This document shows, piece by piece, positions 4,432 through 64,000 of a stretch of DNA of 64,000 nt; position 1 is the first letter of the stretch, and every line of letters begins with the position of its first letter. The position numbers and the translations under genes are program-made. The DNA is from Prorocentrum cordatum. Lineage: Eukaryota. The stretch lies in NCBI GenBank assembly GCA_963575745.1, contig CAUYUJ010000026.1:372001-436000 (forward strand). The letters run 5' to 3'. The notes under the pieces are model-generated. The model was not told the origin of the DNA. It searched no databases and worked only from the letters and a program-made list of their open reading frames with translations.

Positions 4432-4523
4432 GCCTGGATCCGGGACCTCCTGTGGACCCCGTGCCAGCGCTACCTCTACACGGCCTCCTCGGACGGCCTG
4501 GTGTTCGCGTGGAGCGTGCCTAG
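4432..4523 (+). CDS. Exon of a WD40-repeat protein (AWIRDLLWTPCQRYLYTASSDGLVFAWSVP)
   Basis: Typical WD40 blade H..W.RDL.W.P....LYTAS.DG.V..W; high GC3; AG acceptor at 4430-4431. The 3' end (GA donor at 4524) is inferred. Confidence 0.75.
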
Positions 4524-43755: not shown

Positions 43756-44689
43756 TTCAACACCTGTCGCCGGGAGACCCGGCTGGAAACATGTGCACTA
43801 TACGTTGTCCTGTGGCGTGTTTGCGAAGCCCCATGGGACGGCCGCGCAGTCCTCTTATATCGTCGGATGGCTGGGCAGACACTTAGACCTCGGAGCATCG
43901 GCCACAACAAGTCGCGCGACGGTATGTGTTGCCCAGTTCTCGGCTTCCGGGGACCCTCACCCATCACCAGGCCCAGGGACCAGGGACCGTCAGAGGACGA
44001 CCCTGGGTGCAAAATCAGACCCTGGGAATGGGTGCAGATCTATTCGGGCCCATGCTGCCCAGAGGAACACGGCTTTGGAGATCGGAGGGTATTGCTGCCG
44101 TTGCCTCCTCACTCGTCGCCACGGCTGGCGCACCTCGGGAAAGGTCCAGGGAGTGGCGGCAGCTGGCCTTGGCCGCCCCCGCGACACACAGAGATACCTC
44201 TCGAGGCTCAAGTTCCACCGGACCTACAGGCGTAAGCTGCCGCATGGGGTCCCCGCTCGAACGGGGGCCCTCCTGAGTTCCAACAGCTAGTACTCGAGCT
44301 TTCAGTGCGCCCCCCGATATGTTCACGGGTTGGTTGTTCTCATTCCTATATTCTCACGCTGCCTCGCTAGCCACGTGCTCCAGTGAGGTGCTGTTCGCGA
44401 ACAATCTAGGCCGCCTAAGTTTTGGTCGGAGTGGATGGGTCGGCTGATCGCGCCGCATCGCCGATACTGCGCTCATTCACTCGTCGCGGATGCATCGACG
44501 ACTCATGACGACTCGACCCTCTGCCCCCATTCACTCGTGCCCCATTTGTGTGACATCCAAGAAGAAGGAGTCGGTTCCAACCCAGCGCGGCGTATGACGA
44601 CCAGCTGTTTACGTGTGGAGCTTCAGCGCGTGCGTTTCGTGTTTTTTGCTCGCCTGATTAAATGATGTCCTTCTCCTTCTCAGACATTT

Positions 44690-44737
44690 TCTCGTCCTCC
44701 TCCTCCTCCTCCTCCTCCTTCTCCTCCTCCCCCTCCC

Positions 44738-44768
<31 letters not shown>

Positions 44769-44797
44769 ATCCTCCCCATCATCATCATAATCATCAT

Positions 44798-44856
<59 letters not shown>

Positions 44857-44918: not shown

Positions 44919-45164
44919 CAGCAGGTCTGGCCAGGTGCCTGTCAGCTATCTGCCATACGCAGCATCCTGAATAGATTTTGGTGGTCATTCGGAATGGGGG
45001 GCCCCAGATATCTCTGAAAGGGATCTTGCGAACATTCGGACCGCGGGGATCCCGGGTAGTTTCCAAGAAAGGGTTCCTCGAAGAGTCGAAACGGAAGTTA
45101 CCCGGACAATGTCTTCTGACCAGTGGTCCCCGTATGCCCCCAGACCAGGAGGATACATGTTAAG

Positions 45165-45402
45165 GGTAGCTCTTTGGGAGACGTTATATAGGATCGGGAG
45201 TATAGCTCGCGCGCCGTTGCCTTTGGCTCAAGGCACGCGCGCCCTATTTGCCCGGACACTGCTTGTGTTCGCTATGTGTTGGAAAGATCATTACTCCGTC
45301 CACTCCCCATACTGAACTACCCCAGCATGGCATTGGACGCTATCTGCCATCCGCTTCCCATGGAATCGGATGCTATTTGACTTGCCACAGTCATTTCAGA
45401 CT
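45165..45402 (+). repeat. 5' LTR
   Basis: Aligns to 61005-61262 with 8 substitutions and one 20-bp indel, counted by eye. The outer end may extend to TG at 45158. Confidence 0.93.
45185..45232 (+). promoter_or_regulatory. TATA-like box (TATATA, 45185-45190) and DinoSL-like sequence (45213-45232) in the LTR
   Basis: GCCGTTGCCTTTGGCTCAAG differs from DCCGTAGCCATTTTGGCTCAAG by 1 substitution and a 2-nt deletion. Identical in the 3' LTR (61053-61072). Promoter function is inferred. Confidence 0.55.
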
Positions 45403-45417
45403 TGGTAGCGGAGCTGG
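45403..45417 (+). promoter_or_regulatory. Primer-binding site, initiator tRNA-Met type
   Basis: TGGTAGCGGAGCTGG immediately after the 5' LTR. TGGTAGC is complementary to the ...GCUACCA 3' end typical of eukaryotic initiator tRNAs (compare Ty1 TGGTAGCG). Confidence 0.85.
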
Positions 45418-45808
45418 CCGCACTCTCGTGTGGTCAGCTCTTGCTCTTCTTATCCTCACGCTATCTGGCACGATCTTCGCGACCGACTACCACCCTGCGC
45501 CACCACTCCAACTACATTTACGAGGATCAATTCAAGAGCAAGAAGCAGCACGAGAGGCACGACGTCTAGACAACAACATTGGTACCATATACGCTTCATC
45601 ACTACGCTATTACCAACCGCTCGGCAACGAGCCAAAAACGCAGCACTTGAAGCAGAGGCGGGGAGACCCGCAAGATAACGCGCCTCGGAGACTTGACAAG
45701 GCGCTACCCCAGCGCGGCAACGCGCCTGATAACCACCCATATCTTCACAGCCTCGGGCTGGTTATCTTCGCCATCATATGGTTCGCGCTGGGGGCAGCAA
45801 TCGGACAC

Positions 45809-47130
45809 ATGCGCCGAGGAGACAACAGCACAGATGGGCAAACACATGGCCCATACTGGGACCCCCAAGGCAACGTACCTTTCCGCGAATACGTTTATGA
45901 GGTCAACGCGTGGCTCAACGTCACAAGCGGACGTATGACGCCACAGGCCCAAGCAGCCGCCATACAACGCGGCCTGGGTGGCCTAGCGAGGACACTCGCC
46001 ATGAGGGTACCACCTGACATTATAAACTACGGTGCGGACATCGACGGTGTCCACACCGACCCAGTAACCTACAGCATGTTCCTCTTAAGCATGAAGTCCG
46101 AACGCCTGGAAGATGAGCGCCAGCTCACTTCAGGCACACAGCTCATCGACTTTCATGTGCCTCACGGAGAACGAATCGATGTAACCCTCACTCGGTTCGA
46201 GATGGCCCGTCTTGGGGCACAGTCGGTGGGGCTTGACCTTCCCAACTTCCAACTGCTCACTACTATCCTATTCCGCGCCTTAGGCGTCGGCAACCAGCGA
46301 GCCATGCAACTCTTGCAGACACTCCACCACCAAATGCCCCGAACACAACAACAGTATGATGAGTTGTGCGAGAGGATGCGTTCGATAGGCCATTTGTCAG
46401 AACGGTCTCTTGGTAACATAGGATCAGTATTTGGAAGGGGAAGGGGAACTGGTAGTGGAAACTTCTATACTACCTTAACCACTGAAGCTCGGCCTGGCAA
46501 CGGGCCCTCAAACATATGGGCCGACGATCCTGGAGAGTCTACTGCCCTACTAACAGGGGGTCGATCACAACCAAGCTGGGCAACCAGCCCCCCTCCTAGA
46601 GAACCTCAACCACACCGTTCCCTACGGGGTGAAGCGGATCCCCTAAGCGACGGTGTATCCACCTACCTAGGTAATGACGATTTCGACTCCGGCACCGACA
46701 CCGACACCATATCATCAGATGGTATCGAACCCCTAGATTGGTCAGATATCATGCAGATGGAAGGTGACAATCAGCGTGCCGAACACTTGTTCTGGTTATC
46801 ACAACAGGCAAAGCGGAGGTGGAGGAGGTTCACACGAAAACCAGTGCGTCGTGTTAGGAGGAGGATACGGAGCAGCTTCAGAGGAAAAGGTAAAGGCAAC
46901 CGGGGTCGCCGTAGGTTGAATGGACGAGGCATCTCGGCCTTCCTCCAGAGGCTTTCAGATGATCAGTATGATGAGATATTTTTCGGTGGGAAGGCCGTGG
47001 AAAAGGCCGTAGAGACACCTCAGGCAAAGGTAAAGGTCGGCGGGGAAACCCGCGAGGTAGAGACGGCCAGATCTTAAAGTGCCATGAGTGCGATAGTACC
47101 GATCATCATGTAAAAGACTGTCCAGCGAAG
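45809..47130 (+). pseudogene. gag: Gag-like region with CCHC zinc knuckle (frameshift at ~46991)
   Basis: PYWDP...FREYVYEVNAW...GLGGLAR...GERIDVTLTRFE; KG-rich stretch; CHECDSTDHHVKDC (CX2CX4HX4C) at 47080-47121. First in-frame ATG at 45809. Confidence 0.8.
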
Positions 47131-49813
47131 GGGAACGGAAAGGGCAGATCGACCGAAGTCAATTTCGGCTCAAGTGAACCAGATATTGAATACCTGAGCC
47201 TCCAAGACTTTGAGGCCGTGGAACAGATATTTTTCACTTGGGCCAGCAGCGTGGACAACTTGGATGAGCTCCAGGCGTACGGCCATGGACTGTACGCGTA
47301 CTACCTCGAGTACCACCGCAGGTTCGTTCTCGGAAATATCGAGCTTACGCCTGTGGAGCATGAAACGCTGGGAAACCAGCCCTTATCTTTCTTCGACTGG
47401 ATGTTCGGTAACCCAGGCAACACCATGGCCTACGAGACCAGTGACGAGGATGTCACTGTTGAGGCCTCGCCTTCGGATGTTGACCACAACCTTCGACATC
47501 GAACCGACCTTATGCCTGGAAACAGGCCCTTTCCAGTATATCCTCCAAACTATGCTGATCTGATGGGATTAGAATCCCAAGCGTTCACCGTGGGCGTGCC
47601 AGGGGACCCATGCGCACCACCTGGCACGCTCGCACCAGGCGAGTACGGACCGCACACGACACTGCAGACTCTCATGCAGATGCACGCTGTACTGGTCGTA
47701 GCCTATCCCGAGAGCCAAGAGAGTGTCGAGAGTGGCCACATGATGCTACAAGACAACGATGCTTGTGACGACTCGGAGCTAGTGTTAGCGGCTCTTACTC
47801 TTATCGACAGCGTGCACCCTGAGGACGTGCAGCGACATGCGTGGTATTCCAGAGGGAGATGGCGCCAAGCCCTTGAAAGGGCCATCTCCATGCGCGGTCA
47901 GGCTCTCCCTCCGCCGGGATGGGGTCTCCAGGCGGCGGGGCTACAGCCTAACCATGCGGCCGTGCGAAATATTATCGGGCAGCCTACGCTCGGTAACGAG
48001 CCTGAGCCGACTACCGTGCCGCCGACGCCGGGACAGCCAAGCGATGCTCAGACGCTTGTACAGCAGGGAAACCTGCCCGTCCCGGCTGGACCGATGACCG
48101 TCGTCATCGGCAATCCTATGTCAGAAGATGAAGAGGATGATGAATGTGGGATGTGCGAGGACGAGACCACCATTTTCATGATGGAAGTCAATGGCGAAGA
48201 CGAGGAGGTGGATTTCAGTCCCGACAGTCCTGATGCACCACCACCGGCACAAGACCCAATCGTGCCGGACTCCAGTCAGCAGGGAAACCTGCGCGCTCAA
48301 GATGCGCCGCCTGCGGCCCAACAGGAACCCCCGCCGGTTCCTGCTCAGGCTGCGTCGGCGGCTTCATCTGACGAGCACGCCAGTAGGTCTCGCTCGCATC
48401 CACGCCTTAGGGAAGAACCTCACCCGCAAGCACGGCTCCCCCGCGAATGGAGGCAAGCAGGCCCAACAGAGCATGCCGTTCGGCGGGGGGGGTCAATTGC
48501 TCGCCTACAATGACCCTAGGCGTCAAACGGGTGAGCATTCTGCTTTTGGAAAAGGCAACCCAGCCTACAGAGATGCCCAAGGCAGGTCCTTACGGGGTGG
48601 CTACCAGCTCGCGACGAACATTCGTCGTCCTGAGATAGAGGCTGCACGGACGCAGCTGCGGAATGTCATTGCGGCACGCAAGCTATACAGACCCAACGCA
48701 GTCTGTGGGCCGTGCTCAGAGCCACTCCAGGAGCACAGGCCTGGCTGTCCTGTAGGGCTCAACGAGGGCTTGAGCCCGAATAGAGGCCGCACTCCTGCCA
48801 AGGAGGGTCATCCACCGTTGGTTCCGATGACTCAGGCAGAGATCGACGAGATCAACCGTCGTCGCGGAACCACGGCTCATAGGGGCCCTATGGCTGAGGA
48901 GGCCCAGCCTCCGAGGGGACCTGCGCCTATGACCCAGGAAGAAAAATATGCGCTTAATCGCCTTCCTGGAATGCGGGGAAACCCGCATGGCGTCTCCAGT
49001 CAGTCCCAACAGCCAGCGATGATGGATGACGATGAACAGAAGGCTCAGCGAGCCGCAGCAGATGCGGAGCGCAGGCGAGTGGCAGACGCACGCACGCACG
49101 AGGCAACTCGCCAAATTCTACTGGAGTCCCAAAAGATCTATATGAAGGGGACAAGGAACCCCCCACTCCAACCGAAGGCCAAGAGCGAATCGCCTGCGCC
49201 CAGGACGCCTTCGGGGGAGAGACAGAAAACGTCAGCCCGCTCAGAGGAACTTGGGTTAGATGTGCAGATGGAGATGCCTCGCTCTGAAACGCCGAGGTCA
49301 CCGACTAGAGCAACTCCGGCACAGAGACCCGACCCTAGGCAACAACCCCAGGATTCCGTGGAGATTCGTAGACGACCGCCTAGCCGTTGCGGCTATATCG
49401 CCGGCAAGGCCAAGGCTTTCGAGCGTGCAGGGTTTACCCCTACGCCGGCCTCGCCTGTGGCGGCACGCTCCAAGAGGTCTGAGGAAGGTGCTCTATCTAG
49501 GGGTACCTGGGCGCCTAAGATCAAGGGCAGCGCCAGCCGAGAGACGCTGCGGGGAAACCCGCCGGGCGCTGCAGCTGCAGCATCCTCCTCCTCAGGAGCC
49601 GCAGCCTCATCGGTGACAGAGGCTCCTTTGCGGGGAAACCCGCCCGAGGATAAGCTGCACCGCCAAGGGGGCACTTCCTTTACTAGCGGGAGTCAGGCTT
49701 TGATCAATGATCGACATGCCCTGCGGAATCTTCCACCGATGCGCTCGGTGGACGAGGCGTTCATGGAAAGCTGCAGGCAGAAAGGTATTGCCCCGAGAAA
49801 TAATCATACAGTC

Positions 49814-50570
49814 AAGCAGCTTAGTAAATGCCCGAACAAGATATGCAGACACGCGCCTGAAAAAAAAAACACACACAATGCCGTGTGGAGCCTTGAGACA
49901 TTCGACGATCATGATGGATGGATCAATCTCGACGAGCTCGTGCGCGAGTTTCCGCGGCACAACGGACGTACGAGACAGGACGGGCATAACCCCAGACTGG
50001 ATGAGGCCAAGATCATCGCCGAGACCTTCTACGGCAGAACGGTTGACCAGATGGCTGCCATCATGATGGCGATCGTTCACGTCCGCGAGCCGGACGGTGA
50101 GGAGAAGCAGCGTCTCCAGTTCAAGGTCTTGGTACGGGATTCGGGCAAATCCGACATATTCACCCGTGCCTCGCAAGGGCACTCGTGGACGCTCCAGGCC
50201 CCTTGGTCGTTGTACAAGTACATTGTACTACACGACAATCCTGCCGGGAGACCGGCCCCATACCCCGAGGTTGCCACGCATGGCACACGATGGACATCCT
50301 TTGAGGGCATCATGTGGTATGGCCTCTCTTGTCGTCAAGAACACAACACCAAGAAGAGAGGGACAGGCCGATCACACATCCACTTTGTTCCGGCGCTTCG
50401 TCGTCGCGGTGTGCAGAGTGGATGGGGCCCCGATTCCGAGATCGTTATCTTTGTGGACTGGCATCGAGCCCTGAAGGGCGGAATCGAATTTTGCTGGTCC
50501 GACAATGGGGTTCTCCTATCTGAAGGAAAAGACGGCATCATTGAGCCGTATTATATTTCACACGTGGAAG
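49814..50570 (+). CDS. kptA: Tpt1/KptA-family NAD+-dependent RNA 2'-phosphotransferase domain inside the retrotransposon polyprotein
   Basis: Motifs in family order, uninterrupted: LSK...RH (49847-49852), DGW, KQR, RASQGHS (50165-50185), HGT (50279-50287), I...GL, RSHIHF (50369), SG, IFVD...AL..GIEF..S.NGVLL.EG..G.I.P.Y. Confidence 0.9.
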
Positions 50571-52154
50571 AACTCTCCACGGGAAAGCAATGGCGGAACC
50601 CAGAATTTCTGGACAATCGCCTTGCACGCGTCTCCGCCGCCATAATGACGGCCCCGAACAGGTGGACTACTGTGGGTAGTGCTAGTGTCAAGCACAGATG
50701 GTCTCTTGACCGAGAGGCTAATGAGCCTCCTACGGTTCATGGTCAAAGAGAAATTGGGGACCATTACAGCCCAACAGTGCTGGGAAACCAGCCCGAGATC
50801 CACCAGATCCTTGTGATCAACGAGAGTGAGGCAGGAAGCGCGGCTCCAAGCCGTGCTCCAAGCCAAGGGCCTAGTGCCATATTTTGGCAGGTCCTCAGCA
50901 CCTCAGATCTGGATCAGATCGCGGCCGCTCTAAATCCTGAGCAGGTGGAACAGCTAGCGGACAGACTGTGCCAGCAAGACCCCTGGGCCGCAGGCCAAGA
51001 GCCATGTCCGCCATGGCGACGCGTAACCGTCAGGCCACGCAGGGAAACCCGCCCGTTAATTGTCTTAGACACGATATGCCCGAACCGCAGGGAGACCCGC
51101 AAACGTTCGGCCGCATCTTCGGAGAGCCTGCTCGATTTGAGCAGATGCCAGGGAGCCCCTCGCATAGCATGCACACACCGAGGGGCATGACCCCAGTGGC
51201 GACGCCACCAGCACAGTCTCCGTTTGGGACTCCTGGTCGCTCTGCCACGAATGGCACTCTCATGGAGCGGATCGCCGCGGCCAGAGCTGAGCATGGCACA
51301 GCTCTTCTGAACATGATGCCACCTGGCACGCCAACGAGTCTGCAGGGAAACCTGCCCGGCACTCCAACACACCACCGACCTTTTGCTGGCCAAACTACTG
51401 CTGCTGGAGTGCCTGACGACTACCGCGCAAGGGTGGCAGCTGCGGTACAACAGGTGCAGAGTCGCAACCTCCCCACCCAAGTGGTCAGAGGTGGAGGCCG
51501 GCCTGGTCCTGGGAGCCAGAGGGTCCGAACCCACGTGACCCTGCTCGGCAACGAGCCTTTATCCCGGCCTTCAATGCTCATCCGAGCATGGCTCAGGGCC
51601 AGAGGCCAGCGCCAGCACCAATGGATCCGCCACTGTACCCAGACGGGTCTAGAGTCCCGAACAGATTTGTTCGCGAGACGGCGGATCAATTTCATAGCTT
51701 CACGAATGTGCGCTGCAGTGACCAGTCCATGTATCCGAACATGGCCTTCATGCCCGCACCGACAACGCCAGAGGTGGCCGTCCAGCCTACTGCCCATTCG
51801 ATATCATCAGGCAGTAGTGGAGTACCAGACTACATCAGGCAGACGTACCACACTCAACAGGCGTGTTTTAGGAGCAGGCAGGCAGTACAGAGCGTACGTG
51901 ACCAAGCACGTGCAGCTGCACTTGAGGTCGTGAGGAACAGAGGCTCACCTATGCGAGGAAACTCGCCAGCTGTGTCGCCCGCAGCCTCCACAACGGCAGC
52001 TCCTCCAGCAGTGGTTGCCGTAGCGCCGGAGGTACTGGCGCCCGCAGGAGATCCTCCAGTTGTTTTCCTAGGCTCCGAAACAGTCCTGGAGCGGCAGCGG
52101 CGGGTATACCCTAGAGCGGCAGATGTGGAAATCTATGCTGGAATGGAAGACACC

Positions 52155-52313
52155 TGTGCGGTATGCCTCGAGGAGTTTCAGCCGAGGGAGAGCATTTACC
52201 GCTGGAGGTGCAACCACCTGTTCCACGAGGAGCGCTGGAACTCGAATGTGGTGGGCCATGTTGCTAATCAGCGAGAAGGAGACCCTCAGCAACCAGTACG
52301 TGCTATCTGCCGA
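52155..52313 (+). pseudogene. RING-H2 zinc finger (two Cys changed to Arg)
   Basis: CAVCLEEF...RCNHLFHEE(R)W...(R)AICR. Confidence 0.8.
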
Positions 52314-53204
52314 GCGCCAGGCATCATAGCGTCATCGTTTCCATGGGCCGGCTCCTATACTCAGGCCCCCGAACAGGCAGCGAGTGAGCTGCGGGAGTTA
52401 AGGAGCATGGTGGAGGAGATGACAGCCAGTATGCTGGACAGGCAGACAGCGCAGCCCCAGCAGCGGGGAAACCCGCCGGAGGAGGTGAGATCACCGATGG
52501 GGACGGGATACTTCGACCAACTTATCCCGATGACGGCGCCTCAGCAGGGAAACCTGCCTAACACTCCACCTGTGCCGATCCTTCCGACTCATTGCGAGCC
52601 TGGAGTCGGGCAGGTGGCTCCTCCGATGTCTCCCCAGAGTGGGGGTGGGGCCGAGCTGCCACTGGGCCCTGAACAGCTGCGAGAACTGCGTGTCTGCCAC
52701 TTCCAGACCCAGATGGACAATGCACACACTACGTTCATGTTGGACGCCAATAATCCTGAGACTGAGAACTCGTCGTTGGATCTCTCAGACTCATCAGTGG
52801 CCACAGCGGCAACAGCAGTCAGGGCCGTCGAGCTCTCAGCAACGAACAATGAGTTCGACGAGTGGTTGCATTACAGGGACCACCTTACGAATGAGGGGTT
52901 ACAGGACATCTCCCTTCATTCGTACTTGACGCTGACGCGGCGTACTACCCGCGAACAGTACACGAGCATACGTGATGAGTATGCCCACTGGCAGGAGGAA
53001 CAGGGCGCCCAAGCCCAGAACGTGTCGTACTCCCAGTACATCGATCTGGCACGTATGGCCGCAGGAAGGCCAGGTGCCAGCACGATGCGGGGAAACCCGC
53101 CAAGAAGTACGACCGAACTGCGGGGAAACCCGCCAGACAGCACAGCCGGCACTTCAGAGACAGTGCACATCAAGCAGCCTAGTAAGACCTTTCTTGAGGA
53201 TGGT

Positions 53205-53645
53205 GGAAATTCAATCCTCATAGACGTGGGCTCGAAGATCAACATAATGGGAGAAAATACGAGCCGCAAGTTCGTTCAGGCTGCTGAGGCACATACTCGT
53301 CCTTGTACGTTTGAACCTCGCTCTCGTTTAAACATCAACGGGGTAGGCGAGGGGTCGGCCCCGGCTGATACCGTGGGCACCTTCAGCATTGCCTGCGAGT
53401 ACCAGGGTTCGACCCAGCTCGACTCGTACAAGACAAAAATTGTGTCAGGCTGTGGCAAGGACCTGCCAGCTATCCTGGGCCTCGACAGTACGCAGGACAA
53501 ACTCATTATTATTGTGCTCGAACGAGGCCAGGAGAAGCTGAGATTCCCTGGGAAGGGACAGGTCAAGATGGAACTCCCCGAGGGCTCCAAGATCATGCCA
53601 ACAACGAAGTTGCCATCAGGGCATCTGTCAATCAGGTGTGATCGA
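53205..53645 (+). pseudogene. pol: Retropepsin-like aspartic protease
   Basis: ILIDVGSKINIMG (catalytic Asp at 53223), flap-like INGVGEG, C-terminal LPAILGLD. Confidence 0.8.
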
Positions 53646-54211
53646 CTCTGAGCCGCGGGGCAACCCGCCTCGAGCACAAGTACCACATCGTTCCAGACGG
53701 TGCTGACAGGCGAGCCGACCCCTGCGCAAGAGCGCCAACAATTGCAGGGGAACCTGCCTCATGGGGTTGCTCGAGACACTCGCCAAAGCGACGGACGATG
53801 AGCGGCGACAGCATCGATGATCTGGAGACGTTCGATTGCTTCGTAGCCAGGACAATGGCCCAGCATGGTGGACTTGTACCCATGGATGCTGCACGGCCCC
53901 GCCGGAAGATAGTGATGGGATACTCGAGTCATGAGCTGCAGACGGTTAACGACGCAAGGTCGAAAGGCCTATTGAAGCAGCTGATGGACAATCCATCCAT
54001 GCTGGCTGCGTTTGCAGAGCAATCCGCCTCTGAGGCTACCGCGCGCTGCAGTGCTGAGCTCCAGCATCTGAGGGAAGCCCAGATGCTGGCAGACGTTGCA
54101 GGCGCATCTTCTTTATCTTGAAGATGGCAGGGCGACGCTGCCCCCTCGCCGCCTTGCCTAATGACCGATAGGCCAGGGGGTAACAAGGACAGCGGGGCAA
54201 CCTGCCATAGT

Positions 54212-54778
54212 AAAAGAGCTTTCGTCATCGAAGATACGAGAGAGGCTTGCGCCGACCTCCGCACCCGAGGTTATATCTGTGATCGCATTTCCCACAATGA
54301 ACTTATGACGACTGTGGGCACATATTACCTGGGTGCGGTGATCAGTGGGGACTACACTCTAATATGGGTCAGTACCCCGGGTGACTGGCATGCACGAACC
54401 CCAGGAAAGAGGATAGCCCCACACTGGTCTCGTATTCAAAACCTTCTGACAAAAGCCAAGAAGCTCCGCGTGGAAATCATAGTGTGTGGCCCTCCGGGAT
54501 ACGTTTGGAAGTTATCCCCAAGACGTGATACTCTGGAAGATCTCAAGTTGACGGTAGTAAGAATGCGGTTGTGTCATTTCGGTATCAGGTTTAGTATGCA
54601 AGACAATACACCGAGTGGTACCTATATGCAGGTAGCCACATCAATACCGATTAGTTCTAAGTTGTGGGCATGTGCGTGCAAACTGGCGATGCCACAACAT
54701 GTGTTGGATTGGTACGGTCAAACGGTGCGACATGCCGAATGGAGAGCTCAGACACGCATCGCACTCATCCGTCACCTC
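54212..54778 (+). pseudogene. Divergent first copy of a methyltransferase-like domain
   Basis: Collinear with 55511-56134: LIWVSTP, IIVCGPPGYVW, VRMRLCHFGI, MQVATS, CAC...QH. No recognisable SAM-binding loop or catalytic Cys. Confidence 0.45.
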
Positions 54779-55510
54779 AACGACAAAGTCCTGGGCAGCA
54801 ACACTACGCACGGAAACGTGCCGATATATTTGAACACATATACACGTACGGATCACAACATTCCTCACTATGTGACGACCAACAAAGGAGGACTGAAATG
54901 GCCTGATGTCATCCGACGTGTAATAATCAACCTGGATACGAACACGGTTATACAGGATATCGCAGTAGCCGATCAACCAACAGGATATGATTGGCATGCA
55001 CCACTACCTACAGGGGTTGCCAACATCAGTACACGGATGTACTGGCAGCCCGAGGAACCGGTCATGCTCGGAAACGAGCCTACTCAATCACCACAGAAAC
55101 CTAGACGCGTCATCATAGATGACTGTCCTTCTCCCCTCCCGACTCTGGAGATTGAAGCATGTGCCCACTCATCAGCGACGATGGGCACACAGACCGGTGA
55201 ACAAGACGAGCAAGTCTTACCTACGGTGTCGCGTATCAAACAGAAGGTAAGGCTCAAAGCCGAAAAGGAAGCAGGCGTCAAGCCTCGCCGCATCAAAAAG
55301 CACGTTGAAGACGGAAACGATGATTGCGGTGACGACTTGTCGGGACTCGGACAGGATCTTATGGCGACCTGGAGCACTTACGTCCCTGTTGAGCTGATAA
55401 GCTCAGATGAGGGTGATGACCTGTTCCTTACCCTCCTCACATCTATGCCCGACCCACGCGCTGACATATATAGCATAGTAGCTACTCTATGCTATGGTCA
55501 CAATAATTGC

Positions 55511-56134
55511 GTGCATATGTTGGAGCTTTGTGGAGGTGAGGGTGGTATTTCAGAGCTTGCCTTCTCAAGGGGTCTTTCCTCAGGAGGCAACTTAGACAAG
55601 ACCACATGTGTCGACCTGGAAGATCCCTCGGTGCAGCGAGCTGTAGATCATTACTTCGCAGTATGCCACGTACGAGTAGCCATGCTACAGCCCAGTTGTC
55701 GCACCACAGGACCACCATCCTACTACAACTACAAAGTCAACCGCAGCACTTCGGAACAACATCCTAAATAAGATTTGCCACACATAACTTATTGTGGCAA
55801 GATAGCTGTTACTCAAGAGAATGCGCGGAGGTGGTTTATACGCGAACAACCCACAGGAACATGGGTGGATGATATTTCCCCATGGAAAGAACTTGCCAAC
55901 CGACCACGTATCACAACCGTACACATCGACCAATGTGCGACGGGACTCAAAGATACGGCTGGCGACTATATCAAGAAACCGACAAATATCACCAGCAACG
56001 ACGAGACGATTCTTAAACCTTTTGAGCGACTCAAATGCAACGGTCAGCATGTGCACGCACAACCGTGCAACAGGGAGCTTTCAATGACACAAAAATACAC
56101 TCGACGACTGCAGCCCGCCTTTGTGGAAGCTGTT
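55511..56134 (+). pseudogene. Cytosine-5 DNA methyltransferase-like domain (in-frame TAA at 55769-55771)
   Basis: Motif I-like MLELCGGEGG, motif IV-like LQPSC (55688-55699), motif VI-like FIREQP, then IDQCATGL...KKPT. The order matches C5-MTases but the motifs are non-canonical. Confidence 0.6.
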
Positions 56135-56924
56135 TACTTGGCGAAAGCCATTGACACCACGCGCGGAGACGCGCCTACACGCACTGCGCGTGCTTACCCT
56201 GCTGACCTTCCTGATCAAGCTGAACCAGGAAGAGGTGCGAGACGCATCGGCGATCGCATCATCCCAAAAGTGGCTACATGCCCAGCATGCATCGACAATG
56301 TCCGAAAGGACAGTCCCAGCCACAACAGAGATCCTACACAGTGTAAGTATCATGATTCTATCTCTGTATATTGGCCATGTCCTGCATGCCAAAGGGACCT
56401 TACGATAAGCAAGGGCGTTAAGAACCGCCTCGACACTGAGCCCGGCAAACGCCGTTTTGCTGAGCCGTTCAAACTCCCAGATGATCATGATCCCGAGGGC
56501 AACAATGTGCCAGCTCGGTGGAAACCCTTGCCCAAGCCTGGGGAGGGCCACGCTTCAGCATCGGGCGGCCGTCAGGGCGCTCACGCCGGGCCACCGCGAC
56601 CACGAGCCTTTGGGAACACTGATCCTACATCTGGCGCCAGCAGTTACGATATACTGCGAGACGCGCCCGAGCGTGGAAACACGCCTTCCGCGTCTTCAGG
56701 CGAGCCGCCACAAGTAGCGGCCCGCCGTGGTCGCCTACAAGGCGTACCACCACCACCAGATGCAGTTGACGAAGGAGACCGACTGCGCAGAGCCACAAGG
56801 AACCCTCTTGCCTCAACCGGCTCGGGGGCTCCACGACTGCCCGACTGGACGAGATTTGACATCCAACGCAGTCGGCAAAACCTCCGTAGTCACGAACCTC
56901 ACGTAGTCAAAAAGGACCTCCGTA

Positions 56925-57900
56925 AATTGCACTTGCGGTGGTACCATGCGAAGGAACCCAAGATGAGGCTGATCCTAGACAAAGTGGGACTGGACAACGT
57001 TCGACTAAATATGATCAAAGAAATCTGTGACACATGTTTGGGAATGTAGAGCATGGGAACGCCCAGGTAATTCTACGCTACCCTCCGTGAGCCTCCCTGG
57101 AAATTGGCTTGACGAATGTGAAGTAGATCTCATGTTTTACAAGAAACGAACCATATTTCATATTATGGACCGATGTATCCGCCTGGCAGCAGGCCAAGAG
57201 ATTCCTGATAGAGAACGTGACACTATACTCGACGCCTACCACTACTGCTGGATTGCCTATCATGGACCCTTCAAAGTCTTGTATTCAGATGGAGAAGGCG
57301 CCCTCAACAATGACACTGCCAATGCCATGATGGCGAACAAGGGTGCGACACTTCGTATCCGAGCGCCTGGCCAACGCGCGACCTCGATCGAGTCACGCAA
57401 CGGCATTCTTAGGGGCACCCTCCATATGATCGAGGAAGAGCTGAATAGACACAACATCCCCGTTGTATTCACTAGAGTGTTGGCTGAAGGCATCTTCGTC
57501 ACTAACGCTTTCACGTTTTACAACGGAGTATCGCCATACCAAGCACGCACTGGGCGACAGCCCTCCTTTCTTCCTGACCTCGACACCCTTGACTTCCTCA
57601 GGGGGGCCGAGACGTCAGGCCACGAACGGGAGCGCCGCGTGAGGGAAGTTAGCCTGGACGCAATAACACAAGCCACGGCGGTAGCTAAGACAAATCGTGC
57701 TCTCAGGGCTAAGACGGCCCCAGATGGTGCTCGCCTTTACTCAGCAGGGGACTTGGTCGACTATCACCGACCTACAGCCACTAAGGACGACCATGGAGGC
57801 TGGAATGGCCCGTTTCCTGTGATCCGTAACGTGCCTGAACGAGGACACGTCGTCGTCAAGGCAGGATCACGTGAGGTAATTGTAATGCACCCTGATGCTC
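56925..57900 (+). pseudogene. pol: Integrase: HHCC, DDE core and C-terminal GPF region (frameshift at ~57038)
   Basis: LHLRWYH...CDTC/xEC; EVDLMF, YSDGEGA, SIESRNGILR; GVSPYQARTGRQP; GGWNGPFPV. Confidence 0.92.
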
Positions 57901-58939
57901 GACACACGCTATATATTGAATGCCTCCTTACCAGGGAACTTGGCATGGACAACATGGCCATGCAAACCGTCCTTACATATGTGGCACACCTTGGTGCAGG
58001 GAAACCTGCCACAGTCTTTGGCTGTATACCAGATTACAAGGGAAACCTCAATCTGCCGGACGACAGCAAGTTCCACCCGCGCGTGCACCTTGCACTACAG
58101 TATCTCGTGCGAAATTATTTCCGAGTTGAACGCGTAGTAGCCGTGAGACTGGCCAGGAGCGTGTCTAGTCTACCTGCATTTCAGTACGCCACCGGGTCTA
58201 CACTGATCCACTACGACAACGACGTCAACCCAGCCTTCCACTACTATGAGTGTGTGGGCACCGGCTTGAACATCTCCCAAATCACTGGTAGCACTCACTC
58301 CAGACTCATCCAGTGCCTGACGTCACATGTTCCTTCCCTAGCATTTCATGACGACCTTGCCACACATCAGCACTTGAGCACAACATCTGGAGAACATGAC
58401 CAGCCTGGAGACAGGCCTCCACCAGACACCCCAGGTGCTTCATCACCAAGTGAAGGTCGCCTGTCTACAATCTACAAAGAAAACGAGGAACATGACATCG
58501 AGGCTATGGTGATGGAGGAGTGGTACGACGAACTACGTATGGACCTTCATCCCACAACGGTTACCGACGACCATCTCTACTGCGTCCCAACAACCATGCT
58601 GCCCGACCAATGTGTTCTGGTCTCAGCATCCGTGGACGAGGAAGATATCATAGTGTCGGAAACGCTCGGAGACGAGCCTGAACCACAAGAGCCCTGTCTT
58701 ATCTCTCTATGCTCGACTACATCTGACGAGAGCTATTCTCTTGACAGTGATGAACATGGTCCTCATGTTGAGTTATGTTTCACACCAGAAATGTCAAAGG
58801 TAGTGTTGGACCAGACCCAACTTGCACAGCTTGAAACTGACATGGTCACAACGATCAGAGTATATGTATCATCGGCTGCTAAACGTGCTGTGGTAGTCAA
58901 GGAAGACGACCTACTCACCAAAGCCGATATAGCAGCACA

Positions 58940-59990
58940 CCCTAAAGAGGTTAGTGAAGCTTTGTGCACCGAACTCAAGATCTGGCTTGATAACCGGTGC
59001 TTCGATATGTATGACCTATCTAAAGCTTCCAACATCATGACATCCAGCTATGTATACAAGTGGAAGTTTGCGAAGGTAGGCACCGAGAATGTTAAAACCA
59101 TCCGTCTCAGACTTGTCCTTCGTGGATTCATGGACACGGAGGCGTTTGATGTAGAAACCTTCTCAGGAACTGCTCGAAGACAGCCCCAGAGGCTCCTGGC
59201 AAGTGAGGCGGCATGCCATCCATAATGGATCTTAGCATCTATGGATATCGACAAAGCGTTCCTCAAAGGTCTGAACTATGAGGAACTTGCTCATGCCACC
59301 GGCGAGGAAACTCGCATGGTTTGCTTCGCTCTTCCACCAGGAAGCGCCCAGGTGCTTCGTGCACTACTTGGCTTCTCTTCTTACGATGAAAGCCGACACT
59401 GCCTCAGGTGCCTCAAGCCAGGGACGGGTACAGAGGACGCCCCAAGAGCGTTCTCCCTCAAGCTTCGTACGACCACACGAGCGAAAGGCCTCGCACCGAC
59501 CAGTTACGATCCTGAGTTTGAATTCAGTCAAGATCTGTTAACGGCAAAACATGTCGATGATATCAACATGACAGGCCTAGAGAAAACTGCAGATGACTAT
59601 GTACAACGTGTCGAAAAAGTGGTTGGTAAATGCAAGCTCAACAAACATTCTTATACGAACCGCGCCGTTCGCTACACCAAGAATGAACAAGGGGATGTGA
59701 TCATGGACCAGGACGAGTACATTAAACAATTACGTCCTATCACGCACCCTGAACTTACGGGAGCGGCGGCTGACGCCAAAGCTACCAAACTCATCACCGA
59801 CATGTTCGTTAGCCTGCGAGGAGCTCTCGCCTATGCCCTTCTTACCCAAGTCTGGCTTATGGTGCATGTAGTCTCACTCCAGAAGATCCAAGAGCCCACC
59901 ATCTTACAAGTCAGACGACTGAATGCTGTGGCGCGGAAGCTGATCAGCAGCCCGGAACGCATCGCCTTCCCTCGGATGAAACCGGCGAAC
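58940..59990 (+). pseudogene. pol: Copia-type reverse transcriptase (in-frame TAA at 59223-59225)
   Basis: YVYKWK...RLRLVLRGFMD, MDIDKAFLKG, LKPGTGTEDAPRAF, HVDD (59550-59561), MDQDEYI, SLRGALAY. Confidence 0.95.
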
Positions 59991-59993
59991 TAA

Positions 59994-60640
59994 GTAGACA
60001 TACACAGTACTTCGGGGTATCGGAAGCTCACCGGTGAGGAAGACGATGAGACCAAAGGCTACGGCATCCGTGGGGCTAACGTATTGCGGCGAGGAAACTC
60101 GCCTCAAGGCAAATCCGTCATCCACCTTTGCGACGGACTATGCGAATCACACCGATTGCAGGTGAGGTCCAGCTATGCCGCTGAGGCCCTTGCAGCTGCA
60201 CACAACCTTGATGAATGCTACCCCACGCTCATCACTCTCCACGAGCTCAAGTTCAAGGCAGGGGCACTTACTCCACGACAGCTACGAGATATGCGTGAAG
60301 TTGGAGGCCTAGCCATTAAAGTATCACTTACTATAGACGCTGACTCTGTATACAAATCGCTATCCAGCAAAGATCTTAAGATACCGACGGAACGGATTTT
60401 GCTGGGACATATCAGCTGGATACGTGAGCTCATGGATATAGGTATAGTGCACAAAGTCACAACGTACGGTGGTGTGATGCTAGAGATATGACCGCAGATG
60501 GGCATACAAAGGGGAGTATCGATCGGGAGCTGCTGTTGGAAGTGATGTCAGGCACGCAGTCATTTAAGTATGCCGTGAAGCAGTTTGTTCCCTTTCGGGG
60601 TCCTGAGGACAGAAACGAGCCTAAGTCAAATCAGTTTTAG
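59994..60640 (+). pseudogene. pol: Copia-type RNase H (frameshift at ~60455; polyprotein stop TAG at 60638-60640)
   Basis: VRSSYAAEALAA, TIDADSVY, WIRE, WCDARDMTADGHTKG. Confidence 0.9.
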
Positions 60641-61004
60641 TCTGTCCTTGTTGCCCCGCGGTCCAGTCTGCCAGCACGGCGCCCTCCTAGTTGCTCGGAA
60701 ACGAGCCTTTTCACGCTTGGCAACGAGCCTGTTCAGATTGATTCCGGCTCTTTGCTTTAATACCCCTTTTGCTCGGGGAGGTATAGCCCGTTTGGCTTGC
60801 CTCTCGCCGGGCCGATAGCCCTTTGATGTCCAAGGGGCTATCTTGCGTATGCGTGAAAATGCTTTGCGAGGAAACTCGCCTTACAGTCTGGTGTTAGGCC
60901 AGACTGTACGCATTGTTTTTCTTGCAAACAGTCGTGCGCGCGGCATTTGTGGAGCCTAACGGCTGCGCGGCTATGCTCACCGTCTCCTCCCCTCCCGACT
61001 TTGA

Positions 61005-61262
61005 GGTCGCTCTTTGGGAGATGTTATATAGGATCGGGAGTGTAGCTCGCGCGCCGTTGCCTTTGGCTCAAGGCACGCGCGCCCTATTTGCCCGGGCGCT
61101 GCTTGTGTTCGCTATGTGCTGGAAAGATCACTACATCGATCTTATCCTATCTTATCCGTCCACTCCCCATACTGAACTACCCCAGCATGGCATTGGACGC
61201 TATCTGCCATCCGCTTCCCATGGAATCGGATGCTATTTGACTTACCACAGTCATTTCAGACT
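61005..61262 (+). repeat. 3' LTR
   Basis: Direct repeat of 45165-45402, followed by GATACA. Confidence 0.93.
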
Positions 61263-63399: not shown

Positions 63400-63657
63400 C
63401 CAGGAGGAGATGGGGGAGGAGGGAGAGGAGGAGGAGGAGGAGGAATAGGAGGAGGAGGAGGAGGAGGAGGAGGAGGAGGAGGAAGAGGAGGAAGAGGAGG
63501 AGTGCGGAGGAGGAGGGAGGAGGAGGAGCAGAAGGAGGAGGAGGAGGAGGAGGAGGAGGAGGAGGAGGAGGAGTTGGTGGAGGAGGAGCTGGAGGAGCAG
63601 GAGGAGGAGGAGACGGGGAATGTGGAGGAGGAGGAGGAGGAGGAGGAGGAGGAGGAC
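63400..63657. repeat. (GGA)n tract
   Basis: Visible directly. Confidence 0.92.
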
Positions 63658-64000
63658 CACCACTACCACCAATGGCATGTGCAGCAGGAGCAGCACATGC
63701 ATTGGCACGTCGTCCTGGCGGGCGTCGCATCCGACTTGACTCAAAGGGGCCAGCGGTCATGATAATGCTGCGTTCCAGGATGTCCGGGATTCTCCAGATG
63801 TCATAGTATGTGCCACGCGGGTTGCAGAAACACGGGGCCACTAGACACTCTGGACCCCTGGAACGTGACATGAGCCAATCTCACCATGACATCATTCCTG
63901 TCCCATTTTCACAGCCCCCCCTCTGGTCGAAATGAATTCAGTAATGCCCCATCGTCCGTCGTTGTCGACGTCCGCCGCCGTCTCCGCCAGGCAATGCTTC

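What the first reader, a model, noticed from the sequence alone, without database searches (positions are those of the whole stretch)
49814..50570. LTR retrotransposon encoding a Tpt1/KptA NAD-dependent 2'-phosphotransferase between Gag and protease
Seen: a complete, stop-free, intronless Tpt1 domain on the element's sense strand. It keeps all four residues of the Arg-His-Arg-Arg catalytic tetrad (RH, KQR, RASQGH) and the NAD-lobe HGT and RxHIH motifs, and is flanked by element-specific hairpins (49630, 50779). Established: Tpt1/KptA/TRPT1 enzymes remove the 2'-phosphate from spliced tRNA junctions using NAD+, and some also ADP-ribosylate 5'-phosphorylated RNA/DNA ends. It is not a standard Copia domain. 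Inference: it may be released by the protease into the particle to cap or protect cDNA or RNA ends, or to heal tRNA primers or cleaved RNA as a counter-defence.
Basis: partly seen in the sequence, partly recalled or inferred. Interest (0 to 1): 0.85.

Follow-up and report, generated by a model that had tools for sequence, protein, structure and literature searches.

The report
Retrotransposon carrying a Tpt1 RNA enzyme
A decayed copy of a very abundant, unusually large jumping gene of a marine microbe carries, inside its own protein-coding frame, a complete copy of the cellular RNA 2'-phosphate-removing enzyme Tpt1, an accessory that I could not find described for such elements.

Summary
Window 49805-50575 (+) encodes a complete two-lobe Tpt1/KptA domain (Pfam PF01885, 74.5 bits; model closest to human TRPT1). 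[quoted passage not shown] The domain sits in a 1002-codon open frame of a 16.1-kb Copia-order LTR retrotransposon (LTRs 45158-45402 and 60999-61262, 6-bp target duplication, tRNA-type primer site), downstream of a Gag zinc knuckle and upstream of a protease-like motif, integrase, RT and RNase H.

This copy is dead: LTRs are 95.5% identical, with four in-frame stops and several frame breaks. Its intact Tpt1 therefore says nothing about selection. The module is not a one-off, though. Thousands of contigs in four public runs cover it, protein fragments 60-84% identical exist, and a second lineage (46% identical) keeps Tpt1, its key residues and the downstream linker.

The two "flanking hairpins" are 2 of 37 covarying GNRA-tetraloop hairpins spread along the sense strand (0.6 expected by chance). 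This is a separate finding.

Function is inferred: an active enzyme working on the element's own RNA or cDNA. Expression, selection (dN/dS) and host lineage could not be tested.

The parts
45152..45157 (.). Target-site duplication, left copy (GATACA)
   Evidence: Read directly. The same six bases follow the 3' LTR.
45158..45402 (+). 5' LTR (245 bp, starts TG)
   Evidence: Direct repeat found. Aligned to the 3' LTR: 233 of 244 aligned bases identical (95.5%), K2P 0.047, 21 gap columns.
45403..45414 (+). Primer-binding-site-like TGGTAGCGGAGC directly after the LTR
   Evidence: Read. Complementarity to an initiator tRNA-Met 3' end is recalled knowledge and was not tested. No tRNA gene lies in the window.
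45809..47077 (+). Gag-like region (frame 2) ending in an arginine-rich tract
   Evidence: Open frame. No Pfam, NCBIfam or PHROG hit. Called Gag by position only. 45809 is the first ATG of this frame, by hand count.
47080..47121 (+). CX2CX4HX4C zinc knuckle (frame 1)
   Evidence: Read from the translation of 46975-48513, residues 36-49 by hand count.
48182..51190 (+). 1002-codon open frame holding Tpt1. Residues 1-540 and 800-1002 are low-complexity linker.
49805..50575 (+). Tpt1/KptA/TRPT1 domain, both lobes. R-H 49847-49852; K-Q-R 50105-50113; RASQGHS 50165-50185; HGT 50279-50287; R-S-H-I-H 50369-50383; S-G-W-G in place of S-G-M-R at about 50417-50428.
   Evidence: Pfam. PDB sequence search. 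Fold. Alignments. Coordinates by hand.
45619..60879 (+). 37 dispersed hairpins of the form GCNNG-GNRA-CNNGC, including 49549-49562, 49630-49643, 50243-50256 and 50779-50792 around and inside Tpt1
   Evidence: 200 dinucleotide shuffles give mean 0.62, maximum 3. None on the minus strand. Two per strand in the other 47.9 kb.
52155..52229 (+). RING-like zinc finger (frame 0)
   Evidence: Pfam zf-RING_11 E 5.9e-7, 29.5 bits against cut-off 27.
53190..53560 (+). Protease-like segment (D-V-G at 53223-53231, I-L-G-L-D at 53472-53486)
   Evidence: Motifs read. Atlas leads to retropepsin clusters reach only 0.82-0.83. No Pfam hit. Inferred.
54122..57049 (+). Conserved accessory region upstream of integrase (frame 2; in-frame stops at 54119 and 55769). 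Includes a methyltransferase-like motif set at about 55500-56000 and Cys/His-rich segments.
   Evidence: Homologous to P0162 and P0161. No family hit. The fold attempt failed.
56930..57700 (+). Integrase (H-x4-H...C-x2-C, then D 57126, D 57288, E at about 57390). A 1-nt insertion breaks the frame at about 57036.
   Evidence: Relatives 41-56% identical. rve at E 0.0057 in P0162. Motifs and frameshift read by eye.
58980..59990 (+). Reverse transcriptase, RVT_2 type (H-V-D-D at 59550-59561; stop at 59223)
   Evidence: RVT_2 matched in 4 of 7 members of alignment A6, best E 6.6e-11. The window's own pieces give no Pfam hit.
59994..60640 (+). RNase H and end of the polyprotein (stop at 59991, frame break near 60470, TAG at 60638-60640)
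   Evidence: Alignment to P0152-P0158. Sequence read.
60999..61262 (+). 3' LTR (264 bp, carries a 20-bp insertion relative to the 5' LTR)
61263..61268 (.). Target-site duplication, right copy (GATACA)

Best explanation
Window 45158-61262 is an old, inactivated copy of a very high-copy, giant (16.1 kb) Copia-order LTR retrotransposon of a marine protist. An ancestor of this element lineage captured a eukaryote-type TRPT1/Tpt1 coding sequence into its polyprotein, between the Gag zinc knuckle and the protease-like, integrase, RT and RNase H block. The lineage has kept it as a working enzyme module.

Shown:
- The domain, its fold and the catalytic tetrad.
- Its place in the element's frame.
- Its presence in many diverged copies and in a second deep lineage.

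Inferred: the domain is made as part of the polyprotein and so ends up inside the particle. There it most likely carries out the canonical NAD+-dependent removal of internal RNA 2'-phosphates from packaged RNA (genomic RNA and/or primer tRNA). Such scars are left by Trl1-type RNA ligation and would otherwise stall reverse transcription. I prefer the two-step phosphotransferase reaction over one-step 5'-phosphate capping for one reason. The second tetrad arginine (K-x-R), which is selectively needed for step 2, is conserved in every element-type sequence that covers it.
For: Domain and fold:
- PF01885, 74.5 bits.
- Best solved relatives are human and mouse TRPT1 by sequence and by fold.
- All four tetrad residues are mapped through yeast numbering, as are HGT and RxHxH.

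Element:
- LTRs with a 6-bp target-site duplication.
- Integrase lies before RT.
- Relatives carry RVT_2 (4 of 7 members).

Family-wide presence:
- In 4 of 4 runs laid (4 studies), 11672, 12263, 2757 and 2301 contigs at least 80% alike cover all 30 bins, including 49376-51016. At single Tpt1 positions 2-30 contigs per run are seen.
- Nine short protein fragments 70-84% identical and P0151 (77%) exist in public libraries.
- P0004 joins integrase residues (24 of 27 identical) to the Tpt1 N-lobe.

Deep conservation:
- P0001 and P0038 are 46% and 35% identical and share Tpt1 plus about 130 residues of downstream linker (E 2e-26).
- Among window, P0151 and P0001, 78 of 202 positions are invariant. 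These include all 10 positions that are at least 90% conserved across 66 Tpt1 sequences (about 8e-5 by chance, hand calculation).
- A quick tree puts window, P0151, P0001, P0038 and five others on one side of a branch with 98% support, against 76 other Tpt1 representatives.
- P0016, a 50%-identical relative, carries the hairpin-encoded L-G-N-E-P inside its Tpt1 domain.

Step-2 argument: in passages of PMC10622864, Runella Arg64Ala slows step 2 by 210-fold and step 1 by only 3-fold.
Against: - This copy is dead, so nothing here shows current function.
- No dN/dS could be computed, because no DNA of other copies could be fetched.
- The summed contig depth over the Tpt1 bins is about one third of that over Gag and IN-RT in X1 (1310-1731 against 3400-5600), and lower still in X2. 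The tool warns that depth cannot rank parts. Even so, subfamilies lacking or strongly diverging in the middle region cannot be excluded.
- The conserved Arg of S-G-M-R (PhoTpt1 Arg133) helps cage the 2'-PO4 and binds the NAD alpha-phosphate. Its alanine mutant in Runella was deleterious (PMC10622864 passages). It is Gly, Asp or Val in window, P0151 and P0001.
- Some fragments have lost key residues: P0007 has H to Y in R-H, and P0066 has H to R in QGHS.
- No source of 2'-phosphates on retroelement RNA is known.
- The primer site looks like that of an intron-less initiator tRNA.
- No RNA ligase, kinase or CPDase domain was found in the element.
- That 2'-phosphates block RT is recalled, not taken from any call.
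Confidence: 0.45

Rival explanations
1. The same captured and maintained enzyme works mainly as a one-step ADP-ribosyltransferase. [quoted passage not shown] This would protect them from 5'-3' exonucleases or end-joining.
For: - Tpt1 enzymes perform this reaction on 5'-monophosphate ends with the same active-site residues (abstract of PMC12170183).
- Solved KptA-DNA complexes with 5'-p-ADPR-DNA are among the fold matches (9lda, 9ldc).
- The closest solved relative is human TRPT1. Human TRPT1 is reported to cap RNA and DNA ends (recalled).
- Loss of the Arg133-equivalent may point to a changed substrate mode.
Against: - The step-2-specific arginine (K-x-R) is conserved in all element-type sequences that cover it. 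One-step capping would not need it.
- No call distinguishes the two chemistries.
Confidence: 0.2
2. Passenger: a retro-captured host TRPT1 sequence is carried along by a successful family with no benefit to the element and is decaying.
For: - The window copy is dead.
- Several fragments carry lesions at catalytic positions (P0007, P0066).
- One conserved Arg is lost clade-wide.
- Summed depth is lower over the middle region.
- No selection test was possible.
Against: - A lineage only 46% identical still has an open frame, the tetrad and all 10 family-wide near-invariant residues. Neutral drift to that distance would have destroyed both the frame and the motifs.
- The domain is in frame within the polyprotein in both lineages.
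Confidence: 0.12
3. Repurposed fold: the domain is kept for something other than nucleic-acid phosphate chemistry. Examples are RNA binding, NADP(H) dephosphorylation, or ADP-ribosylation of a protein such as Gag or a host factor.
For: - Tpt1 can transfer the 2'-PO4 of NADP(H) (title and passages of PMC10622864).
- The Arg133-equivalent is lost.
- The N-lobe has a roughly 40-residue insertion relative to cellular Tpt1.
Against: The full RNA-phosphate-binding tetrad is retained. A pure binder or a protein ADP-ribosyltransferase would not need it.
Confidence: 0.1
4. Artefact or host gene: the Tpt1 stretch is a host gene fragment or an assembly chimera that merely lies inside the element in this window.
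For: None beyond the general possibility. No whole genome is held for checking.
Against: - It is one 1002-codon frame with element linkers on both sides.
- An element-type hairpin lies inside the domain (50243).
- It is covered by contigs of four independent runs.
- P0004 links it to the integrase.
- P0038 links it to the downstream linker in another lineage.
Confidence: 0.02

Closest known systems
Cellular tRNA 2'-phosphotransferase TRPT1/Tpt1 (human 7yw3, mouse 7yw2, yeast 7yw4)
   Same: Two-lobe fold, Arg-His-Arg-Arg tetrad, RAxQGHS, HGT and RxHxH motifs. Best sequence and fold match.
   Different: - Embedded in a retroelement polyprotein rather than a free-standing 200-250-aa protein.
- About 40-residue insertion in the N-lobe.
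- An 'S-C-R-x-E-H-N-x-K' insertion before RxHxH, shared only with the element-type clade.
- The S-G-M-R arginine is lost.
Tpt1 (PTS_2-RNA) domains in viruses: dicistro-like viruses EPlV2 and PVLADV1 (PMC11316551, passages), gammabaculoviruses NeleNPV, NeseNPV and NeabNPV (PMC3230848, passage)
   Same: A cellular Tpt1 acquired by a selfish replicon. In the dicistro-like viruses it also sits inside a replicase polyprotein. Function is untested in all cases.
   Different: Those are RNA and DNA viruses of arthropod- or oomycete-associated samples. This is a chromosomal LTR retrotransposon family. I made no sequence comparison with them.
Retrotransposons that captured host enzymes: SymbioLINE-Dnmt, SymbioDIRS-Dnmt3, Klebsormidium Gypsy-Dnmt3 (PMC5890265, passages)
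   Same: A host nucleic-acid-modifying enzyme is built into the coding region of a retrotransposon family and conserved across copies.
   Different: The enzyme (DNMT) and the element classes (LINE, DIRS, Gypsy) differ. That paper states that the Copia elements of Symbiodinium lack a DNMT domain, and it does not mention Tpt1 (0 occurrences).
Ty1/Copia LTR retrotransposons, e.g. SmTCL1-4 of Symbiodinium microadriaticum (PMC5776459, main text part 1)
   Same: LTRs, target-site duplication, integrase upstream of RT and RNase H, RVT_2-type RT.
   Different: - 16.1 kb against about 5-10 kb.
- About 9 kb of extra coding sequence (Tpt1, RING, a conserved region upstream of the integrase).
- RT and integrase so divergent that Pfam misses them in this copy.
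- 37 sense-strand GNRA hairpins.
- No purine tract in front of the 3' LTR.
Dispersed stem-loop packaging signals of ssRNA viruses, and boxB-type 5-bp GNRA-like hairpins bound by arginine-rich peptides (recalled, no call)
   Same: Many copies of one small hairpin type with a fixed loop class and free stem sequence, on the genomic sense strand. An arginine-rich tract lies at the Gag C-terminus.
   Different: Nothing is tested here. The hairpins sit mostly inside coding sequence in one register (G-N-x-P). No binding partner is known.

Membership tests
Tpt1/KptA/TRPT1 (Pfam PF01885) | Profile match above the curated threshold | tested here: met
   74.5 bits against cut-off 26, E 1.4e-20. The NCBIfam bacterial equivalog reaches only 19.3 bits against 239. 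That is expected for a eukaryote-type sequence.
Tpt1/KptA/TRPT1 (Pfam PF01885) | Two-lobe fold (N-terminal RNA lobe, C-terminal NAD+ lobe) | tested here: met
   Model pLDDT 80.1. 22 of 22 PDB matches with E<=0.001 are Tpt1/KptA. The 7yw3 match has 262 alignment columns.
Tpt1/KptA/TRPT1 (Pfam PF01885) | [quoted passage not shown] | tested here: met
   Alignments, with the definition from PMC10622864. Window C-R-H, K-Q-R, R-S-H-I-H.
Tpt1/KptA/TRPT1 (Pfam PF01885) | His-Gly-Thr NAD-ribose motif and second His of RxHxH | tested here: met
   H159, G160 and H193 are among the columns at least 90% conserved in A5. Their roles are from PMC10622864.
Tpt1/KptA/TRPT1 (Pfam PF01885) | Conserved Arg of S-G-M-R (PhoTpt1 Arg133 / ApeTpt1 Arg134) | tested here: not met
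   Window has S-G-W-G, P0151 has S-G-W-D, P0001 has S-G-F-V. This residue is not part of the essential tetrad. It is inessential in yeast and deleterious in Runella.
Tpt1/KptA/TRPT1 (Pfam PF01885) | NAD+-dependent RNA 2'-phosphotransferase activity | not testable with these tools
   Needs yeast tpt1-delta complementation or an in vitro assay.
Ty1/Copia LTR retrotransposon | Two LTRs in direct orientation flanked by a target-site duplication | tested here: met
   245- and 264-bp LTRs, 95.5% identical. GATACA on both sides.
Ty1/Copia LTR retrotransposon | Integrase upstream of RT and RNase H in one sense-strand coding region | tested here: met
   Order read. Collinear with P0152-P0154, which span integrase, RT and RNase H.
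Ty1/Copia LTR retrotransposon | RVT_2-type reverse transcriptase | tested here: inconclusive
   There is no Pfam hit on the window's own pieces. RVT_2 is found in 4 of 7 aligned members, best E 6.6e-11. P0152 and P0154 score 27 and 24 bits, below the 31.6 cut-off.
Ty1/Copia LTR retrotransposon | Primer-binding site next to the 5' LTR and polypurine tract before the 3' LTR | tested here: inconclusive
   TGGTAGCGGAGC follows the LTR, but no tRNA was available for comparison. The 40 bases before the 3' LTR are pyrimidine-rich, not purine-rich.
Ty1/Copia LTR retrotransposon | Gag with zinc knuckle and retropepsin with D-T/S-G | tested here: inconclusive
   The knuckle is present. The protease-like motif reads D-V-G in this decayed copy. 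Atlas leads reach only 0.82-0.83, and there is no Pfam hit.

The most novel reading that the evidence does not exclude
This giant Copia lineage carries its own nucleic-acid repair or marking enzyme into the particle. Tpt1 would clear RT-blocking 2'-phosphates from, or ADP-ribose-cap the ends of, an RNA genome. That genome would be selected for packaging through about 37 dispersed GNRA hairpins read by the arginine-rich tail of Gag. This would be the first retroelement with an RNA-repair enzyme and a virus-like multipartite packaging code written through its coding sequence.
Probability: 0.15. Interest if true: 0.85.

Novelty: new variant of a known kind. Interest (0 to 1): 0.68.

Why it matters
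The natural substrates of Tpt1/TRPT1 outside fungal and plant tRNA splicing are a long-standing open question. The enzyme is kept in animals, bacteria and archaea that have no known internal RNA 2'-phosphates (PMC12621583, passage).

A retrotransposon family that has kept the enzyme in its polyprotein over deep divergence gives a compact system. The substrates are limited to what is inside a particle: genomic RNA, primer tRNA and cDNA ends. That makes the question directly testable.

It also adds an RNA-end or 2'-phosphate enzyme to the short list of host enzymes captured by retroelements (DNMTs, dUTPases, chromodomains). Dicistro-like viruses and baculoviruses have made the same acquisition independently, which suggests a shared pressure.

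The 37 covarying GNRA hairpins written through the coding sequence are a second feature I found no description of. They show how an RNA signal and a polyprotein can be co-encoded.

Tried and rejected
Whole genome of the window: none held.

DNA of other copies or relatives:
- The search for related loci with the Tpt1 alignment in metagenome, viral and genome contigs: pattern hits, but no confirmed relative.
- A back-translated element-specific motif in metagenome contigs gave 13 loci. 0 of 13 encode any element protein by tblastn.
- The IN-RT alignment in viral and genome contigs: nothing.
- As a result there is no dN/dS, no copy-by-copy census, and no hairpin covariation across copies.

Long proteins carrying this Tpt1: none among 1363 candidates of 551-1754 aa.

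Other copies in the window: none by tblastn or blastn.

Expression: no RNA holder was listed among the runs. This says nothing about expression.

Other domains:
- NCBIfam and PHROGs add nothing.
- P0162 and the IN-RT profile find nothing in the PDB by sequence.
- The Atlas gives only sub-0.9 leads: a DNA cytosine-5 methyltransferase cluster at 0.77 for 54122-55768, and retropepsin clusters at 0.82-0.83 for 53151-53648.
- The fold of the methyltransferase-like segment of P0162 (3-row alignment) came out at pLDDT 43 and was not searched.

Rfam: no family on the element at E<=1.

Hairpin-encoded G-N-x-P as protease cleavage sites: rejected.
- The residues on either side covary as base pairs would (L..E, R..P, Q..L, R..S, H..V).
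- 7 of 35 coding hairpins are in other registers.
- 2 lie in the 3' UTR.

Earlier findings of the scan: nothing on this genome, sequence or idea.

I stopped that step. The coordinates of motifs in 'parts' are hand counts from earlier outputs and may be off by a codon.
Full report
**1. The observation**

- The translation of 49700-50650 (+) matches Pfam PF01885 (PTS_2-RNA) at E 1.4e-20, 74.5 bits against a cut-off of 26.
- The whole 1002-codon open frame 48182-51190 gives E 5.5e-19.
- By sequence, the only solved relatives at E<=0.01 are two mammalian TRPT1 chains, 7yw3 and 7yw2.
- An AlphaFold2 model built on a 66-row alignment (pLDDT 80.1, pTM 0.75) matches human TRPT1 best (E 7e-13).
- All 22 PDB matches with E<=0.001 are Tpt1/KptA chains, and the alignment covers both lobes.

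I mapped the catalytic tetrad through the yeast enzyme. Its chain carries native numbering: R23 H24, K69-x-R71, R138. PMC10622864 (passages) defines the tetrad.
- Window C-R-H (49847-49852) corresponds to R23 H24.
- Window K-Q-R (50105-50113) corresponds to K69-x-R71.
- Window R-S-H-I-H (50369-50383) holds the fourth arginine.

That is wrong, but all four residues are present. One conserved residue is missing. The arginine of S-G-M-R (PhoTpt1 Arg133) is glycine here. In the structures it helps cage the 2'-phosphate and binds the NAD alpha-phosphate. It is dispensable in yeast but not in Runella.

**2. The element**

- Direct repeats of 245 and 264 bp (45158-45402 and 60999-61262) are 95.5% identical (233 of 244 bases, K2P 0.047). 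They are flanked on both sides by GATACA.
- TGGTAGCGGAGC follows the 5' LTR directly.
- On the + strand, in order, lie:
  - a Gag-like frame with an arginine-rich tail
  - a canonical CX2CX4HX4C knuckle (47080-47121)
  - about 2.7 kb of low-complexity linker
  - Tpt1
  - more linker
  - a RING-like finger (Pfam zf-RING_11, 29.5 bits)
  - a protease-like motif
  - a 2.9-kb conserved region of unknown function
  - integrase, RT (H-V-D-D) and RNase H
- Pfam does not recognise the window's own integrase, RT or RNase H.
- Eleven public proteins are 41-56% identical to the integrase-RT frame. RVT_2 is found in 4 of 7 members of the joint alignment, best E 6.6e-11. rve is seen weakly in P0162.

This is therefore a very divergent, giant (16.1 kb) Copia-order element. 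No purine tract precedes the 3' LTR, which I cannot explain.

**3. State of this copy**

The copy is dead.
- Four in-frame stops: TGA at 54119, and TAA at 55769, 59223 and 59991.
- At least seven changes of frame along the coding region.
- One frame change, at about 57036, is a 1-nt insertion relative to the C-R-E-C of the relatives (by eye).

With at least 11 lesions in 15.2 kb, a 0.77-kb segment escapes damage by chance with probability of roughly 0.55-0.6. The 'complete, stop-free' state of Tpt1 in this window is therefore no evidence of selection.

**4. Is Tpt1 a one-off?**

No. Several independent lines show it is part of the family.
- I laid the contigs of four public runs (four studies) on 45000-61400 at 80% likeness or more. 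This placed 11672, 12263, 2757 and 2301 contigs, with cover in all 30 bins, including the three bins over Tpt1.
- At single Tpt1 positions (50163, 50277, 50393) 2-30 contigs per run are seen. Nearly all carry a base different from the window, so the window has private changes.
- The exhaustive protein search found 748 Tpt1 relatives. The top of the list consists of nine short fragments 70-84% identical and P0001 (46%). The indexed search added P0151 (77% over 190 aa).
- P0004 begins with 27 residues of the integrase frame (24 identical) and continues in the Tpt1 N-lobe. It comes from a rearranged copy that links the two parts.
- P0038 belongs to the same lineage as P0001 (99% branch support). 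It aligns to the window from the Tpt1 C-lobe through about 130 residues of downstream linker (35% identity, E 2e-26).

Two lineages that differ by more than half of their residues thus share Tpt1 in the same polyprotein context.

Conservation falls on the functional residues. Among window, P0151 and P0001, 78 of 202 positions are invariant. These include all ten positions that are at least 90% conserved across 66 Tpt1 sequences, plus K-x-R. By hand that is about 8e-5 by chance.

A quick maximum-likelihood tree (85 rows; the careful search did not finish; long branches were flagged) places window, P0151, P0001, P0038, P0018, P0122, P0014, P0027 and P0079 on one side of a 98% branch. Several share an S-C-x-x-E-H-N insertion.

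Results against this reading:
- The summed contig depth over Tpt1 is about a third of that over Gag and IN-RT. The tool says depth cannot rank parts.
- Some fragments have lost catalytic residues (P0007, P0066).
- No nucleotide sequences of other copies could be obtained, so dN/dS is missing.

**5. The hairpins**

They belong to a much larger set.
- Between the LTRs, the + strand holds 37 hairpins with at least 5 perfect pairs closing a GNRA tetraloop: 24 GAAA, 5 GCAA, 5 GAGA and 3 others.
- 200 dinucleotide shuffles give a mean of 0.62 and a maximum of 3.
- There are none on the minus strand, and two per strand in the remaining 47.9 kb.
- 35 of 37 have the form GCNNG-GNRA-CNNGC, with ten different, always complementary, NN pairs.
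- 35 of 37 stems are exactly 5 bp.
- Two lie in the 3' UTR.
- Of the 35 in coding frames, 28 sit in the register that reads x-G-N-x-P. The flanking residues are dictated by the stem: L..E, R..P, Q..L, L..Q, R..S, H..V.
- The same site in the RNase H region reads R-R-G-N-S-P here and R-R-G-N-A-P in P0152, as a compensatory stem change would give.
- P0016 has L-G-N-E-P inside its Tpt1 domain.
- Six of the 15 listed structural joints between copies begin or end at a hairpin edge.
- Rfam has no match.

This is an RNA-level (or plus-strand) signal. It is neither a set of protease sites nor a border of the Tpt1 domain. My best guess is a dispersed packaging or recognition signal read by the arginine-rich Gag tail. 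That guess is untested.

**6. How it probably works**

Shown: an intact-looking enzyme module kept in the polyprotein frame of a successful retroelement lineage.

Inferred: it is translated with Gag and the protease and is therefore in the particle. The most likely chemistry is the canonical two-step removal of internal RNA 2'-phosphates. The second tetrad arginine matters mainly for step 2 (210-fold against 3-fold in Runella), and it is conserved in every element-type sequence that covers it.

Rivals:
- The main rival is one-step 5'-phosphate ADP-ribose capping of cDNA or RNA ends (abstract of PMC12170183; KptA-DNA complexes).
- A neutral passenger is made unlikely by the deep conservation.
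- An assembly or host-gene artefact is made unlikely by the four runs and by the linking fragments.

Weak points of my preferred reading:
- I know of no source of 2'-phosphates on retroelement RNA.
- No ligase, kinase or CPDase domain lies in the element.
- The claim that 2'-phosphates stall RT is from memory.

**7. Comparison with the literature**

Full-text searches returned no paper that places a Tpt1 domain in a retrotransposon.
- Tpt1 + retrotransposon + phosphotransferase: 5 papers.
- PTS_2-RNA: 8 papers.
- KptA + retrotransposon: 3 papers.
- TRPT1 + retrotransposon: 3 papers.
- A broader six-term search.
- I read passages of four co-occurring hits, which were incidental. The other hits I saw only as listings.

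Supplements were not searched, and subscription journals and Repbase are not covered.

Related cases in print:
- Tpt1 domains in the polyproteins of two dicistro-like viruses (PMC11316551).
- Tpt1 genes in gammabaculoviruses (PMC3230848).
- DNMT capture by LINE, DIRS and Gypsy elements (PMC5890265).

The search for GNRA + hairpin + retrotransposon + packaging gave five unrelated papers.

**8. Verdict**

I file it as a new variant of a known kind: a Copia-type retrotransposon with an undescribed accessory enzyme. The hairpin system is a second, independent point of interest.

Still open: host lineage (the only named relative is labelled Pyramimonas sp.), expression, selection and activity.

Noticed in passing
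window 45619-60879 (+): 37 covarying GCNNG-GNRA-CNNGC hairpins lie on the sense strand of the element (0.62 expected from shuffles, 0 on the other strand). Most are inside coding sequence in the register that reads x-G-N-x-P, and two are in the 3' UTR. No Rfam match.
   Followed up: yes
window 54122-57049 (+); P0162 residues about 1-900: A 2.9-kb region upstream of the integrase is conserved in related element proteins (P0161, P0162). It includes a segment with cytosine-5-methyltransferase-like motifs (x-C-G-G-x, P-x-C, E-Q-P, Q-C) and Cys/His clusters. No family or PDB hit was found, the Atlas gave a lead at only 0.77, and the fold attempt failed (pLDDT 43).
   Followed up: partly
window 52155-52229 (+): A RING-like zinc finger (Pfam zf-RING_11, 29.5 bits) lies in the polyprotein between Tpt1 and the protease-like motif.
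   Followed up: no
window 60960-60998 (+): The bases directly upstream of the 3' LTR are pyrimidine-rich. No polypurine tract is visible where an LTR element should have one. The LTR ends in ...CAGACT rather than CA.
   Followed up: no
window 45206-45808 (+): The Gag frame stays open for 200 codons upstream of its first ATG (45809), back into the LTR. Three hairpins there (45619, 45658, 45712) are already in the G-N/D-x-P register. The true start of translation is unclear in this copy.
   Followed up: no
joints at 47988, 48973, 51053, 52557, 60707, 60880: Several length variants between copies begin or end exactly at a hairpin edge. Either the hairpins are conserved islands in fast-changing linkers, or they are hot spots for template switching.
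   Followed up: partly
P0021 (1700 aa) and P0008 (776 aa): Two cellular-type relatives of the domain stand out. One protein joins SPRY, a kinase-like P-loop, a fungal-type tRNA-ligase CPD domain and a C-terminal Tpt1, which looks like a Trl1-type ligase-Tpt1 fusion. Another holds four tandem Tpt1 domains.
   Followed up: no
window 34980-36236 (+): A sulfatase-type open frame (Pfam PF00884, E 9e-24) is the only recognisable host gene among the 18 long frames I scanned outside the element.
   Followed up: no
window 43372-43727, 44646-44850, 63347-63700: Long imperfect microsatellite and low-complexity arrays (8-12-nt periods; CTC/ATC triplets) flank the insertion. Strongly skewed low-GC blocks lie at 8-12 kb and 24-26 kb.
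   Followed up: no
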